Source: Escherichia coli (lineage in GTDB: Bacteria; Pseudomonadota; Gammaproteobacteria; Enterobacterales; Enterobacteriaceae). From it: a DNA stretch of 64,000 bases. The position numbers are program-made. The stretch lies in NCBI RefSeq assembly GCF_048403405.1, contig NZ_CP183129.1, one strand, 5' to 3'. Shown piece by piece: positions 1-6,000 of the stretch; positions within the stretch are counted from its first letter, which is position 1, and each line of letters begins with the position of its first letter.

Positions 1-3000
1 TATACCCTATTCCAACCGTTGTGTGGATGGCTGATTGACGTCATTGGCCTCAAACTGGGCTTTATGATCTGCGCGGGACTGTGGGCGCTGGCCTGTCTGA
101 TGCATGCGGGGGCGGGAAACTGGGTACATCTGGCGCTGTTGCGCTTCTTTATGGGCGGTGCGGAAGCCGCGGCAACCCCAGCAAACGCCAAAACCATCGG
201 TGAATGGTTTCCAAAATCAGAACGCCCGATCGCCGCAGGCTGGGCAGGCGTCGGTTTTTCCATCGGTGCCATGCTGGCCCCACCGATTATCTATTTTGCC
301 CACGCTTCATTCGGCTGGCAGGGTGCATTTATGTTCACTGGCATCCTGGCGATGCTGTGGGTGGTGCTGTGGTGGGCGTTCTATCACAACCCGGATAAGC
401 ATCCTAACCTCAGCAAAGCCGAACTGGACTTTATCCGCCAGGATAACGAAGCGCCCCCTGTCAAGTTACCCTTTCTGACCGCACTGAAAACCGTAGGCAA
501 AAATAAACGCTTTTACGGTATCGCTATCCCGGCCTTTATGGCAGAACCGGCGTGGGCGGTGATGAGTTTCTGGGTTCCGCTATACCTGTCCAAAACCTAT
601 GGCATGGACCTGAAGCAGATCGCATTATTCGCCTGGTTGCCGTTCCTCGCCGCTGATCTTGGCAGTATTGCCAGCGGCTATCTGACCAAACTTTACACCC
701 GCCTGTTTGGGCTGAGTCGTGTGAACTCCGTTGTCGCATCATCGGTCAGTGGCGCATTCCTGATGGTTTCGCTGGCGGTGATGGCCTTTACCAATAACCC
801 GTATATCGCCATCGTCCTTATTTCCATCGGCGGCTTCGGTCACCAGATCATCTCCTGCATGCTGAGCGCACTGGTGGTGGAATCCTTCGACAAAGGTCAG
901 ATGGCCACTGTTAACGGCATGCGCGGTTCTGCCGCGTGGATCGCAAGTTTCCTGTTCTCCCTGATTATCGGGGTTACCGCTGACAAAATCGGCTTTAACC
1001 CCCTGTTTATCGCCATGGGCTTCTTTGACCTGATTGGCGCTTTCTTCCTGGTCACCTTTATTGCTGAACGTCGCGCAAAACGCGCCTGAGAGTGGATGTA
1101 AACATGAAAACGCTGAAAAACTGGACCCTGCACAAACAGTCTGCCCACCACGTTGAACTGCTGGTCGATGGCCAGCATATCCTGTGCCTGTACGTGCTGG
1201 AAGAAAATCTGTTCCGCGTGCTGTTAAAACGCAAAGGCGAGCTGGCGCTGGATCGCACCTGGAGCATTGCTCCGGCGCAGGATGTGCCATGGGAAGGGCG
1301 CAGCCGCGAAGATCTCAGCGGCTTTAGCCTGCCCGCGTGGACATTGATCCAGCACGACGACACCGTGGTTATCGCCACCGAGTCACTGCGTGCAACCGTT
1401 CACCAGCCGCTGTGGCTGGAGTGGCACTATCGTAACAACGAAGGCGAATGGCTGCCGTTGGTGAATGACCGTCCGACTAGCGCTTATCTGCTGAATGCCC
1501 ACGGCGATGGCGTGGCACACTATCAGAGCCGTCGTAAAGATGAACGCTTTTATGGCCTCGGAGATAAAGCCGGCGACCTGCAACGCAACGGTAAACGTTA
1601 CGAGATGCGTAACCTCGACGCGATGGGCTACAACGCCGTTAGTACTGACCCGCTGTACAAACACATTCCATTCACCATCACCCGCCGCGATGACATTAGC
1701 TTCGGCCTGTTTTATGACAACCTCAGCAGCTGCTGGCTGGATCTGGGCAACGAGATCGACAACTACCACACCGCCTATCGCCGCTGGCAGGCGGAAGCGG
1801 GTGATATCGACTACTACCTGTTTACCGGCGAACGCGTACTTGATATCACCAAATCCTTCGTACGCCTGACCGGAAAAACCCTGTTCGGACCGAAATGGAG
1901 CCTGGGCTACAGCGGTTCAACTATGCACTACACCGATGCGCCGGACGCACAAAATCAGTTGATGAACTTTATCCGCCTGTGTGAAGAACATGCAATTCCC
2001 TGCGATTCGTTCCAGCTCTCTTCCGGTTATACCTCAATTAACGGCAAGCGCTATGTGTTCAACTGGAATTACGACAAAGTGCCGCAGCCGAAAGTGATGA
2101 GCCAGGCATTTCACAATGCTGGTTTGCACTTGGCCGCCAATATCAAGCCGTGCCTGTTGCAGGATCACCCACGCTATAACGAAGTGGCAGAAAGAGGACT
2201 GTTCATCCGTGATTCAGAAACAGATGAACCAGAACGTTCCAGCTTCTGGGATGACGAAGGTTCTAACCTCGACTTTACTAATCCGCAGACCATCCAGTGG
2301 TGGCAGGAAGGCGTGACCACACAGCTTCTGGAGATGGGTATCGACTCCACCTGGAACGACAACAACGAATTCGAAGTATGGGACGGTGAAGCACGCTGTC
2401 ACGGCTTTGGTCAGACGATCGCGATCAAACATATTCGCCCGGTGATGCCACTGCTGATGATGCGAGCCTCGATGGAAGCCCAGCAACGTTTCGCTCCGGA
2501 AAAACGTCCGTACTTGATCTCCCGCTCCGGCTGCGCGGGAATGCAGCGCTATGTGCAGACCTGGAGCGGCGATAACCGCACTAGCTGGGACACTCTGCGC
2601 TACAACACCCGCATGGGTCTGGGGATGAGCCTCTCCGGGCTGTATAACCTCGGTCACGACGTCGGCGGTTTCTCCGGTGATAAGCCGGACCCGGAACTGT
2701 TTGTACGCTGGGTACAAAACGGCGTGATGCATCCGCGCTTTACGATTCACTCGTGGAACGATGACCATACCGTAAACGAACCGTGGATGTATCCGGGCGT
2801 CACTCCGGCGATCCGCAGCGCTATTGAGTTGCGCTATCGCCTGCTGCCCTACTTTTATACCCTGATGTGGCAGGCATACGCCGATGATGAACCAATGCTG
2901 CGTCCGACTTTCCTTGACCACGAGCACGACGTTCAGACTTTTGAAGAGTGTGATGACTTCCTGCTTGGTCGCGATATTTTGGTTGCCAGCGTCGTAGAGC

Positions 3001-6000
3001 AAGGCGAGCGCCAGCGCCGTGTATGGCTGCCAGATAACGAAACTGGCTGGTACGATTTCTACAACGGCGAATGGTTCAGTGGCGGTCAGTGGATCACCCT
3101 CGACGCACCGCTGGAGAAACTGCCGCTGATGGTGCGTGCCGGGGCTGGTCTACCGCTCAGCAAACGCATCACCTATGTGAGCGCAGAACAAGACGATACC
3201 CGCGAACTGAAACTGTTCCCGCTGAAAGGTGTGGGCACAACGTCCGGCCTGCTGTTTGAAGACGATGGCGAAAGCTGGGGCTACCAAACTGGTAATGCGC
3301 TTTGGGTGGAATGGGAAATGGTTTGCGATGGGGCGACCATCAACCTGAAAGTCAACGCGCGCGGGGATTATCGACCTGCATGGAGTGCACTGAAAGTGTC
3401 ATTACCAGTGGAAGAAAAACGCACGCTGCTGGTCAATGGTGTTGAAGGGAGTGAATGGATGCGTTAAATCATTACCGGGGCCGGGAGGCGACTGCGCCTT
3501 ACCCGGTCCAGCCATCGAATCCTTTACCTCAGTATTTCACGCTGCAGGAAGGCAGCAAACCTGTAAACCCCGGGAGCTTAAATAAGTAAGTGACCGGGGT
3601 GAACAGGTGAAGCCAATGCATCTGCCGCATGAAAGACGGCGGGAAATTAACCGTCGATCCCTTTACTACGCAGGTAATCTTCGTAATTACCGCTAAAGTC
3701 GATCACGCGTTCCGGGGTGATTTCCAGAATTCGGGTCGCCAGGGAGCTTACAAACTCACGGTCGTGAGACACAAAGATCAGCGTGCCCTGATACAGTTCC
3801 AGCGCCATGTTCAGCGACTCAATAGATTCCATATCCAGGTGGTTGGTCGGTTCGTCCATGATCAGAATGTTCGGCTTCTGCATCATTAACTTACCAAACA
3901 GCATCCGCCCTTTTTCTCCACCGGAAAGCACTTTCGCTGGCTTTTTGATGTCGTCCTGGCTGAACAGCAAACGACCGAGAATGCTGCGTACCGCCTGCTC
4001 ATCATCGCCTTCCTGCTTCCACTGGCTCATCCATTCGAACACGGTCAGATCATTTTCAAACTCATATTCGTGGTCCTGGGCGTAGTAACCAATGCGTGCG
4101 TTTTCAGACCATTTTACGGTGCCGCTGTCCGGTTGCAGATCGCCCACCAGCGTTTTCAGCAGCGTTGATTTACCGACGCCGTTGGTACCCAGTACAGCCA
4201 GTTTTTCACCCACTTCCAGCAGCAGGTTGAGATTTTTAAACAGTGGACCGTTATCAAACCCTTTGGTCAGACCTTCCACTTCCAGCGCGTTACGGAACAG
4301 TTTCTTATCCTGTTCAAAACGGATGAACGGGTTCTGACGGCTGGAGGCTTTCACCTCTTCCAGTTTGATTTTATCAATCTGGCGCGCGCGCGAAGTTGCC
4401 TGGCGAGATTTCGAGGCGTTGGCGCTAAAGCGGCTAACGAAAGATTGCAGCTCAGCAATCTGCGCTTTCTTCTTGGCGTTATCAGCCAGCAGACGCTCAC
4501 GCGCCTGGGTCGCCGCCGTCATGTACTCATCGTAGTTACCTGGATAAACGCGCAGCTCGCCGTAATCCAGATCCGCCATGTGGGTACAAACCATGTTAAG
4601 GAAGTGACGGTCGTGCGAGATGATGATCATGGTGCTGTCACGCTCGTTCAGCACCTGTTCCAGCCAACGAATGGTGTCGATGTCGAGGTTGTTGGTCGGT
4701 TCGTCGAGCAGGAGAATGTCTGGATCAGCAAACAGCGCCTGCGCCAGCAGCACACGCAGCTTCCAGCCAGGAGCAACTTCACTCATCGGGCCGTAGTGCT
4801 GTTCCACTGGAATTCCCACGCCAAGCAACAGTTCACCGGCGCGAGCTTCCGCAGAGTAACCGTCCATTTCGCCGTATTTCACTTCCAGATCGGCCACTTT
4901 ATAGCCGTCTTCTTCACTCATTTCCGGCAAAGCATAGATGCGGTCACGCTCCTGTTTCACTTCCCACAACTCTTTATGCCCCATGATCACCGTATCCAAC
5001 ACAGTGAACTCTTCAAAGGCAAACTGATCCTGACGCAGCTTACCAATGCGCTCGTTGGGATCGAGGGAAACGTTACCCAACGTCGGCTCTAAGTCGCCGC
5101 CGAGGATCTTCATAAAGGTGGATTTACCACTACCGTTCGCGCCAATCAGGCCGTAACGGTTGCCGCCGCCAAATTTGACGGAAATGTTTTCAAACAACGG
5201 CTTACTGCCGAACTGCATGGTGACGTTACTGGAAACTAACACAGGCGTATCCTGAAAAGAGATATGACAAACCGCGCATTATGCCATAAGTCTGAAAGAA
5301 GATCCTGCTCCTCGCTTAAGGTCTACACTCAAGCCAAAGGCAAAAAATGTGATTTCGTACACATCTGATTTCACTGTGAGCAGGAATGAACTTATAATGC
5401 GCTTCCAATACTCTAATATTCTCAACCCAATGGCCTGCCAGGCACAAAATCTCGCTTAACATGAATATGAAATTGAAAACATTATTCGCAGCGGCCTTCG
5501 CTGTTGTCGGCTTTTGCAGTACCGCCTCTGCGGTAACTTATCCTCTGCCAACCGACGGGAGTCGCCTGGTTGGTCAGAATCAGGTGATCACCATTCCTGA
5601 AGGTAACACTCAGCCGCTGGAGTATTTTGCCGCCGAGTACCAGATGGGGCTTTCCAATATGATGGAAGCGAACCCGGGTGTGGATACCTTCCTGCCGAAA
5701 GGCGGTACTGTACTGAACATTCCGCAGCAGCTGATCCTGCCGGATACCGTTCATGAAGGCATCGTCATTAACAGTGCAGAGATGCGTCTGTATTACTATC
5801 CGAAAGGAACCAACACCGTTATCGTGCTGCCGATCGGCATTGGTCAGTTAGGCAAAGACACGCCTATCAACTGGACCACCAAAGTTGAGCGTAAAAAAGC
5901 AGGCCCGACCTGGACGCCGACCGCCAAAATGCACGCAGAGTACCGCGCTGCGGGCGAACCGCTTCCGGCTGTCGTTCCGGCAGGTCCGGATAACCCGATG

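What the first reader, a model, noticed from the sequence alone, without database searches (positions are those of the whole stretch)
1..3467. MFS transporter plus GH31 glycosidase pair adjacent to ybiT where K-12 has ybiU
Upstream of ybiT the window carries a tightly coupled MFS permease gene (stop at 1087-1089) and a GH31-family hydrolase gene (start at 1092 or 1104), forming a sugar-utilisation module. From memory, K-12 has ybiU at this position, so this looks like strain-variable accessory content. Its GC content is host-like, unlike the dinG-rhlE island, and an ERIC element sits at its right boundary.
Basis: partly seen in the sequence, partly recalled or inferred. Interest (0 to 1): 0.4.

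Follow-up and report, generated by a model that had tools for sequence, protein, structure and literature searches.

The report
Lost ancestral glucuronide-type sugar operon
Next to ybiT this E. coli strain keeps an old enterobacterial three-gene sugar-uptake module (repressor, acid-sugar transporter, family-31 glycosidase) that about 89% of sequenced E. coli, including K-12, have deleted, and whose enzyme looks built for a glucuronic-acid-containing alpha-glycoside rather than an ordinary alpha-glucoside.

Summary
Window 1-1089 is the 3' 363 codons of an MFS gene. A 14-nt gap follows, then a 787-aa GH31 gene (1104-3467), a REP-like hairpin, and an ERIC element abutting the ybiT stop codon. K-12 lacks both genes.

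- ybiU is not replaced. The module sits between ybiU and ybiT.
- It has a third gene, a divergent LacI-family regulator, just left of the window.
- It is in 577 of 5,426 complete E. coli genomes.
- It is not an acquired island. The same triad sits at ybiU/moeB-ybiT in at least 17 named Enterobacteriaceae genera. Its divergence matches that of its flanks, and it has no mobility genes or flanking repeats. Most E. coli deleted it, through at least three different "empty" haplotypes.

On function:
- The MFS is a 43%-identical ExuT (hexuronate transporter) paralogue.
- The GH31 keeps its catalytic residues but replaces two sugar-binding Asp with Ser306 and Lys348. All 127 related cluster representatives carrying the motif share this signature.
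- Relatives sit beside uxuA-uxuB-uxaC-uxuR, KdgK/Eda or TRAP transporter genes.
- 34 of 77 loci carry a UxuR-type operator upstream.

The best reading is import and hydrolysis of a glucuronate-yielding anionic alpha-glycoside, possibly by a GH31 alpha-glucuronidase. This is untested.

The parts
1..1089 (+). 3' 363 codons of the MFS transporter gene (full gene 433 aa; the first 71 codons lie left of the window). It is an anion:cation-symporter-type MFS and a paralogue of the hexuronate transporter ExuT.
   Evidence: ORF and stop. Pfam MFS_1 E=1e-50. TIGR00893 best hit at 267 bits, below the cut-off of 395. 43% identity over 414 aa to K-12 ExuT. In the DgoT (6e9n) alignment the Arg of 'YITR' and the Glu of 'GGAEAA' are conserved. 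Full gene seen in L001 14788-16089.
1090..1103 (+). 14-nt intercistronic spacer between the MFS stop and the GH31 ATG, consistent with an operon junction.
   Evidence: Sequence. The same MFS-GH31 adjacency occurs in 72 of the 83 homologous loci examined.
1104..3467 (+). GH31 glycoside hydrolase gene (787 aa, no signal peptide). The catalytic Asp419 codon is at 2358-2360 and Asp490 at 2571-2573. Clade signature codons: Ser306-Ser307-Gly308 at 2019-2027, Arg316 at 2049-2051, Lys348 at 2145-2147.
   Evidence: Pfam GH31 domains. Catalytic residues align with YicI D416/D482 and YihQ D405/D472. The SSG/K348/R316 signature is found in 127 of 127 motif-bearing representatives. The closest PDB chains have the canonical Asp instead.
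3478..3509 (.). REP-like GC-rich hairpin immediately after the GH31 stop codon. It is a probable 3' end or mRNA stabiliser.
   Evidence: Fold -24.6 kcal/mol, z=-2.3. REP-like sequences occupy the same spacer in other genera. No canonical terminator was called.
3531..3649 (.). ERIC (IRU) element filling the rest of the GH31-ybiT spacer and abutting or overlapping the ybiT stop codon.
   Evidence: Dispersed repeat with a median of 9 places per genome. Alignment to the ahpC-ahpF copy and to the second window copy. Inverted arms at 3559-3580 and 3587-3608. ERIC2 primer match. Fold z about -6 on both strands. The same element sits at the orthologous spot in Enterobacter asburiae, Citrobacter werkmanii and C. 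amalonaticus.
3654..3654 (.). Right-hand point where homology to all triad-less E. coli haplotypes resumes, inside the last codons of ybiT (..GIDG* here, ..GIE* in K-12).
3647..5242 (-). ybiT (ABC-F ATPase), the conserved right-hand neighbour. It is not part of the module.
   Evidence: NF011646 at 1067 bits against a cut-off of 762. Annotation.

Best explanation
The two genes are the distal part of a three-gene catabolic module. It consists of a LacI-family repressor gene (divergent, just left of the window), an ExuT-paralogous MFS proton symporter, and a cytoplasmic retaining GH31 alpha-glycosidase.

**Origin.** The module is the ancestral occupant of the ybiU/moeB-ybiT interval in Enterobacteriaceae. 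About 89% of sequenced E. coli have deleted it, and this strain retains it.

**Proposed mechanism.**
1. The MFS imports an anionic (carboxylate-bearing) alpha-glycoside.
2. The GH31 hydrolyses it in the cytoplasm through Asp419 (nucleophile) and Asp490 (acid/base).
3. D-glucuronate is released and enters the UxaC-UxuB-UxuA (Ashwell) pathway.
4. Expression is held off by the local LacI-type repressor at a conserved ATGAAAAnnnTTGCA palindrome. In many species a UxuR-type box (TTGGTnnACCAA) overlaps the promoter as well.

**Shown here:** gene content, distribution, synteny, conservation of catalytic residues, the active-site signature, gene neighbourhoods, and motif enrichment.

**Inferred:** substrate identity, direction of transport, repressor-operator pairing, and the loss scenario.
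For: **Anatomy**
-.

**Distribution and ancestry**
- 577 of 5,426 complete E. coli genomes carry it, always on the chromosome (apart from fragments in one chimeric assembly, IH5) and next to ybiT.
- ybiW-ybiV-ybiU-[LacI, MFS, GH31]-ybiT-ldtB is conserved in Enterobacter, Kluyvera, Pseudocitrobacter, Citrobacter, Leclercia, Silvania, Pluralibacter, Raoultella, Klebsiella, Kosakonia, Phytobacter and Intestinirhabdus.
- moeB-[triad]-ybiT occurs in Cronobacter, Cedecea, Buttiauxella, Mangrovibacter and Dryocola; in Atlantibacter the triad follows moeB but no ybiT was found in the locus.
- Within E. coli, triad identity between two lineages is 97.5-98.7%, against 95-98.8% for the flanks. Between genera the triad is 73-84.5% and the flanks 73-87%.
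- There are no mobility genes, no flanking repeats beyond chance, and GC is host-like.
- The empty haplotypes differ. K-12 type has ybiU plus REP. The 042/IAI39 type has a ybiU allele only 75% identical. The B2 type lacks ybiU.

**Function**
- The MFS is 43% identical to ExuT.
- The GH31 catalytic residues are intact.
- The Asp equivalent to YicI D306 and GII 'LDIEH' is Ser306. The Asp that contacts the 6-OH in GII is Lys348 (PMC9061262). This signature is present in 127 of 127 motif-bearing representatives and absent from the canonical ones.
- Pantoea and Erwinia place MFS-GH31 divergent from uxuA-uxuB-uxaC-uxuR, all above NCBIfam cut-offs.
- Limnobaculum has GH31-uxuA-uxuR-TRAP.
- Distant members (42-47% identity) sit in UxuB-like/UxaC/ManD/KdgK/Eda/DctQM-GH31-DctP, in Eda-KdgK-GH31, and next to UxaC.
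- A UxuR-type box lies within 400 bp upstream of the MFS gene in 34 of 77 loci, against a background of 0.006 per 420 bp. In a 9-kb K-12 stretch the same box occurs only in the gntP-uxuA and uxuR promoters.
- The LacI-type palindrome is present with at most 1 mismatch in 51 of 52 loci that have the regulator gene, and in none of the 6 that lack it.
Against: - No enzyme of this clade has been assayed, as far as I could find, so substrate and product are inferred from context only.
- The closest solved structures are neutral alpha-glucosidases, including glucosidase II at 272 bits. Public annotation calls the protein alpha-glucosidase or alpha-xylosidase.
- In E. coli itself there is no adjacent uxu gene, the UxuR-like box has one mismatch, and the LacI-type palindrome has two.
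- 43 of 77 loci, mostly Enterobacter, Klebsiella and Citrobacter, have no UxuR-type box.
- The equivalence of Lys348 with the GII Asp that contacts the 6-OH rests on a sequence alignment and a residue offset, not on a structure.
- LacI and MFS are closer to Kluyvera (80.7% and 84.5% nt) than to Citrobacter (73-75% and 79-80%), although the flanks are not. Some old recombination of the module between genera is therefore possible.
- Absence from other Escherichia species and from Salmonella is only suggested.
Confidence: 0.6

Rival explanations
1. It is an ordinary neutral alpha-glucoside module, as the database names suggest. The MFS takes up a neutral alpha-glucoside such as maltose, nigerose or kojibiose, and the GH31 is a plain alpha-glucosidase.
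For: The best PDB matches are ER alpha-glucosidase II, a Flavobacterium GH31 and MalA. The best NCBIfam hit is alpha-glucosidase MalA. Sources name homologues 'alpha-glucosidase'. The catalytic machinery is intact.
Against: - The MalA equivalog scores 306 bits against a cut-off of 800, and the other equivalogs are also far below cut-off.
- Two Asp that recognise the glucose in subsite -1 of GH31 alpha-glucosidases are replaced by Ser306 and Lys348, and this is invariant in the clade (PMC9061262).
- The transporter belongs to the organic-anion MFS family and is an ExuT paralogue.
- Glucuronate-pathway neighbours recur.
- UxuR-type boxes are enriched upstream.
Confidence: 0.2
2. It is a horizontally acquired accessory islet, gained by a minority of E. 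coli at the ybiU-ybiT spacer.
For: - Only 10.6% of E. coli carry it.
- Carriage is patchy. A strain named ST648 has it, whereas 042 and IAI39 lack it.
- The ybiU-ybiT interval is hypervariable and clearly recombines.
- LacI and MFS are somewhat closer to Kluyvera than expected.
Against: - The same triad in the same position, with the same convergent overlap on ybiU, occurs in a dozen Enterobacteriaceae genera.
- There is no integrase, IS or tRNA, and no flanking repeats.
- GC is host-like.
- The best foreign protein is only 91% identical.
- Divergence between two E. coli lineages equals that of the flanks.
- The flanks are typical E. coli right up to the junctions.
- At least three different empty haplotypes exist.
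Confidence: 0.15
3. It is a second sulfoquinovosidase-type system. The anionic alpha-glycoside would be sulfoquinovosyl glycerol, as for the E. coli GH31 YihQ.
For: YihQ is a GH31 enzyme acting on an anionic alpha-glycoside. Arg316 aligns with the sulfonate-binding Arg301 of YihQ.
Against: - Only one of the three residues of the sulfonate triad is kept. W304 becomes Phe319 and Y508 becomes Phe523.
- Identity to YihQ is only 24%, and the NF007746 alpha-glucosidase model scores 138 bits against a cut-off of 553.
- No sulfoglycolysis genes were seen in any of the contexts examined. Glucuronate genes appear instead.
Confidence: 0.03

Closest known systems
E. coli uidR-uidABC (gus) beta-glucuronide system
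   Same: The logic is the same: a dedicated repressor plus UxuR control (established knowledge), a glucuronide transporter, and a cytoplasmic glycosidase whose product glucuronate feeds UxaC-UxuB-UxuA.
   Different: UidA is a GH2 beta-glucuronidase, UidB is a GPH-family transporter and UidR is TetR-type. Here the enzyme is an alpha-retaining GH31, the transporter is an ACS-type MFS and the regulator is LacI-type. Alpha-glucuronide specificity is predicted, not shown.
E. coli YicI-YicJ (GH31 alpha-xylosidase plus transporter)
   Same: A transporter gene is followed by a cytoplasmic GH31. The catalytic Asp pair, Arg and His are conserved.
   Different: Identity is 24%. The NF007940 score is 230 against a cut-off of 606. 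YicI D306-C307-F308 corresponds to S306-S307-G308, and N347 to K348. YicJ is GPH family, not ACS.
E. coli YihQ sulfoquinovosidase (GH31) with YihO
   Same: A GH31 acting on an anionic alpha-glycoside. Arg301 is equivalent to Arg316.
   Different: W304 and Y508 of the sulfonate triad are not conserved. Identity is 24%. The genomic context is different.
ExuT hexuronate:H+ symporter (MFS, anion:cation symporter family); DgoT structure 6e9n
   Same: 43% identity over 414 aa to ExuT. The TM1 'Y-x-T-R' motif matches ExuT. The Arg and Glu that DgoT uses for carboxylate and proton binding are conserved (their roles are from my knowledge of the DgoT structure paper).
   Different: It is a distinct orthologous group, 74-94% identical among Enterobacterales. 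It is always paired with the GH31, so the substrate is probably a glycoside rather than a free hexuronate.
ER alpha-glucosidase II alpha subunit (GH31_1), the closest solved structure
   Same: Best PDB match at 272 bits over residues 147-737, with the same four-domain architecture.
   Different: GII has the canonical 'LDIEH' and 'IVDP' Asp residues. This clade has 'LSSGY' and 'NIKP'.
Known alpha-glucuronidase families GH67, GH115 and GH4
   Same: If the prediction holds, the reaction is the same: release of (4-O-methyl-)D-glucuronate from alpha-glucuronides such as xylan-derived aldouronates. This would occur intracellularly after import, as in the GH67 systems of Geobacillus and Paenibacillus (my knowledge).
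   Different: The folds and families are unrelated. This protein is GH31, and no alpha-glucuronidase is listed among GH31 activities in PMC9061262 (2022) or PMC10792220 (2023).

Membership tests
Glycoside hydrolase family 31 | GH31 TIM-barrel, N-terminal and C-terminal domains above Pfam gathering scores | tested here: met
   PF01055 at 297 bits (cut-off 23.5), PF13802 at 127 (27), PF21365 at 82 (24.4), PF17137 at 30.5 (27).
Glycoside hydrolase family 31 | Catalytic nucleophile Asp (WxDxxE motif) and acid/base Asp | tested here: met
   D419 in WNDNNE and D490 in SGDN align with YicI D416/D482 and YihQ D405/D472.
Canonical GH31 alpha-glucosidases (GII / MGAM / GAA / MalA type) | Beta-3 Asp of the 'D-I-D/E' motif and beta-4 Asp of 'VDP', which recognise Glc in subsite -1 (CtGII Asp443 and Asp482, PMC9061262) | tested here: not met
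   Ser306-Ser307-Gly308 and Lys348 occupy these positions. The MalA equivalog scores 306 bits against a cut-off of 800.
GH31 alpha-xylosidase (YicI equivalog) | NCBIfam NF007940 cut-off; the D306-C307-F308 motif | tested here: not met
   230 bits against a cut-off of 606. The motif is SSG.
GH31 sulfoquinovosidase | Sulfonate-binding triad Arg301 / Trp304 / Tyr508 (YihQ numbering; from my knowledge of the YihQ structure paper) | tested here: not met
   R316 / F319 / F523, so one of three is kept.
MFS, anion:cation symporter (ACS) family / ExuT-like | MFS_1 domain; similarity to ExuT and DgoT; conserved TM1 Arg and TM4 Glu | tested here: inconclusive
   MFS_1 E=1e-50. 43% identity to ExuT. Arg and Glu are conserved against DgoT. 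However, the TIGR00893 score of 267 is below its cut-off of 395, and the substrate is untested.
LacI-family repressor with palindromic operator | LacI HTH plus periplasmic-binding-protein fold; a palindromic operator that co-occurs with the gene | tested here: met
   Orthologues hit PF00356 and PF13377. PGAP annotates it as LacI family. The ATGAAAAnnnTTGCA palindrome has at most 1 mismatch in 51 of 52 loci with the gene and at least 3 mismatches in all 6 loci without it. Binding was not tested.
UxuR (hexuronate) regulon | UxuR-type box TTGGTnnACCAA in the promoter region | tested here: inconclusive
   Met in 34 of 77 loci, 21 of them perfect, against a background of 0.006 per 420 bp. The E. 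coli copy has one mismatch and overlaps the only -35-like hexamer. 43 loci have none. Binding was not tested.
ERIC / IRU repeat | An imperfect palindrome of about 120 bp, multi-copy and intergenic, with the conserved ERIC core | tested here: met
Horizontally acquired genomic island | Atypical composition, mobility genes, a tRNA or direct repeats at the borders, and a foreign phylogenetic signal | tested here: not met
   GC is 0.55 against 0.51 +/- 0.055. No integrase, IS or tRNA lies between ybiU and ybiT. The longest shared border word is 7 nt, equal to the shuffle mean. Divergence equals that of the flanks. Only a weak affinity of LacI and MFS to Kluyvera was seen.

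The most novel reading that the evidence does not exclude
The GH31 is itself an alpha-D-glucuronidase. It would be the founding characterisable member of a large GH31 clade: at least 127 clusters at 50% identity among the 150 best representatives. The clade is defined by (S/G)SG at the beta-3 position, an invariant Lys in place of the beta-4 Asp, and an invariant Arg316. Its subsite -1 would be re-charged to accept a C6 carboxylate, with room at O4 for a 4-O-methyl group.

The triad would then be the alpha-glucuronide counterpart of uidABC. It would let roughly 10% of E. 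coli, and most Enterobacter, Klebsiella, Citrobacter, Pantoea, Serratia and Yersinia, use alpha-glucuronides. Candidate substrates are xylan-derived aldouronates (GlcA/MeGlcA-alpha-1,2-xylose) or glucuronosyl-glycerol from glucuronosyl lipids. I found no alpha-glucuronidase activity listed for GH31 in the papers I could read.
Probability: 0.4. Interest if true: 0.7.

Novelty: new variant of a known kind. Interest (0 to 1): 0.5.

Why it matters
- **Strain-level metabolism.** If the prediction holds, K-12 and most E. coli lineages lack an uptake and hydrolysis route for alpha-linked glucuronic-acid glycosides that a tenth of E. coli and most other Enterobacterales have. These compounds are abundant in plant xylan breakdown products.
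- **Enzymology.** It would add a new substrate specificity to GH31, one of the most studied glycosidase families. A simple sequence signature, SSG plus Lys348, would re-annotate thousands of 'alpha-glucosidase' and 'TIM-barrel domain-containing' entries.
- **Biotechnology.** It offers a candidate gene set for engineering E. coli to use aldouronates left in acid hydrolysates of hemicellulose.
- **Evolution.** It shows that an 'accessory' E. coli locus can be an ancestral core-neighbourhood operon removed several times at a recombination-prone interval full of REP, ERIC and IS elements.

Tried and rejected
**Literature**
- Ten full-text searches found no paper describing this locus or a GH31 alpha-glucuronidase. 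Terms included ybiT+ybiU, GH31+hexuronate transporter, GH31+alpha-glucuronidase, UxuR+alpha-glucuronidase, methylglucuronoxylose, the GH31 subfamily classification, and GH31+glucuronate isomerase.
- The Enterobacter asburiae JDR-1 methylglucuronoxylose paper and the GH31 subfamily paper (PMC10074150) are not held.

**Motif scans**
- My first scan for the UxuR box used the wrong spacing (N4 instead of N2) and found nothing. It was corrected.
- My first regex for the LacI-type operator was mis-spaced and was corrected.

**Phylogroup of the carriers**
- This was not resolved. UMN026 is not in the collection.
- My guess that carriers are phylogroups D and F was contradicted. 042 (D) and IAI39 (F) lack the triad, while a strain named ST648 has it.

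**Other negative results**
- Rfam finds nothing significant in window 1-6000.
- No canonical terminator follows the GH31 gene.
- There are no border repeats.
- The partial hit in strain IH5 is a chimeric assembly, not a mobile copy.
- Four of eight context look-ups for distant homologues landed on contigs too short or uninformative.
- I did not run a structure prediction, because the tools return no coordinates for inspecting the pocket.

Full report
**What is in the sequence**

- Window 1-1089 is in frame to a stop at 1087-1089 and encodes the C-terminal 363 residues of an MFS permease (Pfam MFS_1 E=1e-50).
- After 14 nt, an ATG at 1104 opens a 787-codon ORF ending at 3467. An in-frame GTG lies at 1092.
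- ATG 1104 is the real start. RefSeq uses it, and the first five residues are invariant in 12 orthologues.
- The product hits all four GH31 Pfam domains and has no signal peptide.
- ybiT lies convergently at 3647-5242.
- The 179-nt spacer holds two elements.
  - A REP-like hairpin at 3478-3509 folds at -24.6 kcal/mol.
  - An ERIC element lies at about 3531-3649. It matches a repeat found a median of 9 times per E. coli genome. It aligns with the ahpC-ahpF copy and a second window copy near 60,440-60,545. It contains the ERIC2 primer sequence with 3 mismatches.
- GC is 0.55 against a window mean of 0.51 +/- 0.055.

**Comparison with K-12 and other E. coli**

- MG1655 has ybiT, 240 bp, then ybiU, with no MFS or GH31 gene. 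The refutation condition is therefore not met.
- The module does not replace ybiU. In strain TUM14771, which is 100% identical to the window over its first 15 kb, the order is ybiW-ybiV-ybiU-[LacI-family regulator (-), MFS (+), GH31 (+)]-ybiT.
- A 5,243-bp segment stands where K-12 has 257 bp of REP/BIME sequence and a terminator hairpin. Homology breaks inside the last codons of ybiU (..GMDV* against ..GIDS*) and of ybiT (..GIE* against ..GIDG*).
- These C-terminal tails also vary between genera. The breaks therefore mark the end of coding constraint rather than exact deletion endpoints.
- The triad is in 577 of 5,426 complete genomes (10.6%), next to ybiT in the listed carriers. It falls into two sequence classes: 487 genomes at 99% or more, and 89 at about 98.2%.

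**Ancestral locus, not an acquired islet**

- A scan of one genome per species, followed by tblastn with the flanking E. coli proteins, shows ybiW-ybiV-ybiU-[triad]-ybiT-ldtB in these genera: Enterobacter, Kluyvera, Pseudocitrobacter, Citrobacter, Leclercia, Silvania, Pluralibacter, Raoultella, Klebsiella, Kosakonia, Phytobacter and Intestinirhabdus.
- moeB-[triad]-ybiT occurs in Cronobacter, Cedecea, Buttiauxella, Mangrovibacter and Dryocola (in Atlantibacter the triad follows moeB but no ybiT was found in the locus).
- The triad sits elsewhere in Serratia, Yersinia, Pectobacterium, Dickeya, Rahnella, Hafnia and Budvicia.
- The convergent overlap of the regulator gene with ybiU is conserved. 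An ERIC element at the GH31-ybiT spacer is shared with Enterobacter asburiae, Citrobacter werkmanii and C. amalonaticus.
- Between the window type and an ST648 strain, the triad is 97.5-98.7% identical and the flanks 95-98.8%. Between E. coli and other genera, the triad is 73-84.5% and the flanks 73-87%.
- There is no integrase, IS or tRNA, and no border repeats beyond chance.
- Triad-less E. coli fall into at least three haplotypes.
  1. K-12-like ybiU plus a REP spacer. This is seen in K-12, O157 and IAI1, and IAI1 has an added IS621.
  2. A ybiU allele only 75% identical. This is seen in 042, IAI39 and EC42405.
  3. No ybiU at all. This is seen in the B2 strain SF-468.
- All three haplotypes share the right junction.
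- I read this as an ancestral operon deleted or replaced in most lineages at a recombination-prone interval.
- Two caveats apply. LacI and MFS are somewhat closer to Kluyvera than the flanks predict.

**The transporter**

- The full 433-aa MFS is 43% identical over 414 aa to K-12 ExuT, the hexuronate:H+ symporter.
- Its best family is the D-galactonate/ACS subfamily, though below cut-off.
- Against DgoT (6e9n), it keeps the TM1 Arg ('YITR', as in ExuT) and the TM4 Glu.
- To my knowledge, all characterised members of this family carry organic anions.

**The enzyme**

- The closest solved structures are ER alpha-glucosidase II (272 bits), a Flavobacterium GH31 and MalA. YicI and YihQ are distant at 24% identity.
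- All NCBIfam equivalogs are far below cut-off.
- Catalytic Asp419 and Asp490, together with Arg474 and His549, align with YicI D416/D482/R466/H540 and with YihQ D405/D472/R455/H537.
- Two subsite -1 residues differ.
  - The beta-3 Asp is replaced. This is YicI D306, the D of GII 'LDIEH' and of 5djw 'MDIDY'. Here the motif reads Ser306-Ser307-Gly308.
  - The beta-4 Asp lies 39 residues later. In Chaetomium GII it is Asp482, which contacts the 6-OH of the -1 glucose, while Asp443 'identifies Glc-1' (PMC9061262). Here it is Lys348.
- An exhaustive search of 1.84 billion representatives, aligned to the family profile, gives a clean split.
  - Of the 150 best representatives, 127 carry (S/G/A)SG. 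All 127 have Lys348 and Arg316.
  - The few with canonical DI(D/H) have Asp, Glu or Asn at position 348.
- This is therefore a large GH31 clade with two acidic residues around C4/C6 of the glycone swapped for neutral and basic ones.
- None of the PDB matches belongs to it. The best PDB score is 272 bits, whereas every one of the 150 representatives scores at least 319 bits.
- It is not a sulfoquinovosidase. Only one residue of the YihQ sulfonate triad is kept.

**Gene neighbourhood and regulation point to glucuronate**

- In Pantoea and Erwinia, and in a 'Klebsiella sp.' genome, the MFS-GH31 pair has no LacI gene. It is divergent from uxuA-uxuB-uxaC-uxuR (L066 shows uxuA, uxaC and a uxuR-like gene but no uxuB), all above NCBIfam cut-offs.
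- Limnobaculum has GH31-uxuA-uxuR-TRAP.
- Distant clade members show the same association.
  - A 47%-identical protein lies inside DctQ-DctM-GH31-DctP, next to ManD, KdgK, Eda, UxaC and a UxuB-like dehydrogenase.
  - A 42%-identical one overlaps Eda-KdgK.
  - A 46%-identical one neighbours UxaC.
- The palindrome TTGGTnnACCAA occurs in a 9-kb K-12 stretch only in the gntP-uxuA and uxuR promoters. It lies within 400 bp upstream of the MFS gene in 34 of 77 triad loci, 21 of them perfect, against a background of 0.006 per 420 bp.
- E. coli keeps AATTGGTAGAACAACTT, with one mismatch. It overlaps the only -35-like hexamer, although that promoter call is not above chance.
- A second palindrome, ATGAAAAnnnTTGCA, has at most 1 mismatch in 51 of 52 loci with the LacI gene and is absent from all 6 without it. 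It is the likely operator of the local repressor.
- These regulatory sites lie left of the window.

**Most likely mechanism**

1. A LacI-type repressor keeps the MFS-GH31 operon off. In many species UxuR does so as well.
2. The ExuT-like symporter imports a carboxylated alpha-glycoside.
3. The cytoplasmic GH31 hydrolyses it with retention.
4. D-glucuronate enters the UxaC-UxuB-UxuA pathway.

The logic parallels uidR/uxuR-uidABC for beta-glucuronides (established knowledge). My confidence levels are:
- about 0.8 that it is a repressor-controlled import-and-hydrolysis operon;
- about 0.6 that its substrate yields glucuronate;
- about 0.4 that the glycone itself is glucuronic acid, which would make the enzyme a GH31 alpha-glucuronidase. 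Candidate substrates are xylan aldouronates or glucuronosyl-glycerol.

All substrate statements are inference. No assay exists that I could find. The activity lists for GH31 in PMC9061262 (2022) and PMC10792220 (2023) contain no alpha-glucuronidase.

**Verdict**

It misplaced the pair relative to ybiU, missed the regulator, and implied gain where loss fits better.

As genome anatomy this is ordinary: a conserved, already annotated catabolic operon. The added value is a specific, testable functional prediction for a large and apparently uncharacterised GH31 clade.

Noticed in passing
L093 (IAI39) 14451-15710; L094 (042) 15217-16476; L098 (EC42405) 436-1695: E. coli carries two deeply divergent ybiU alleles. 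The 419-aa allele in 042, IAI39 and EC42405 is only 74-76% identical in nucleotides to the K-12/window allele, which is as far apart as different genera. The neighbouring ybiV and ybiW are 96-98% identical.
   Followed up: partly
L095 (SF-468, B2) 1462-1660: This B2 strain lacks ybiU as well as the triad. It has ybiV, about 200 bp, then ybiT. The right part of its spacer is 88% identical to the K-12 spacer.
   Followed up: partly
L096 (IAI1) 1953-2933: An IS621 (IS110-family) transposase is inserted in the ybiU-ybiT spacer of IAI1. This is consistent with the known preference of this IS for REP sequences.
   Followed up: no
window 60428-60545: There is a second ERIC element in the window. It matches the ERIC2 primer perfectly and ERIC1R with one mismatch.
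   Followed up: partly
L015 9365-9551, L019 9365-9551, L024 9365-9546: An ERIC element occupies the orthologous GH31-ybiT spacer and abuts the ybiT stop codon in Enterobacter asburiae, Citrobacter werkmanii and C. amalonaticus. Close relatives have REP-like sequences there instead. This is either an old shared insertion or a repeatedly used target.
   Followed up: no
L001 13390-13423 (left of the window): The LacI-family gene and ybiU are convergent and overlap at their 3' ends. The overlap is 34 nt in E. coli and 79-82 nt in other genera.
   Followed up: no
L103 (strain IH5, NZ_CP168949.1): This 'complete genome' contains a run of fragments about 1 kb long from unrelated genes: CRISPR casA, acfD, MFS/GH31, phage capsid, aadA5 and bla. 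All are flagged partial. It looks like a chimeric assembly, not biology.
   Followed up: yes
L110 8001-15905 / L111: A 46%-identical clade member sits in an operon with a GDE_C/GH63-like hydrolase, a PIG-L-family deacetylase and a GPH-type transporter, next to UxaC. This hints that some clade members act on N-acetylhexosamine-uronate glycosides.
   Followed up: no
L089 4706-6017; L071 7001-9367: The MFS gene of Pantoea conspicua and the GH31 gene of 'gamma proteobacterium L18' are each split into two ORFs. These are probable frameshift pseudogenes or sequencing errors.
   Followed up: no
window 3647-3655: YbiT is 531 aa here (..GIDG*) against 530 aa in K-12 (..GIE*). The last one or two residues vary freely among genera: GIDN, GIEN, GIEG and GIES.
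   Followed up: yes
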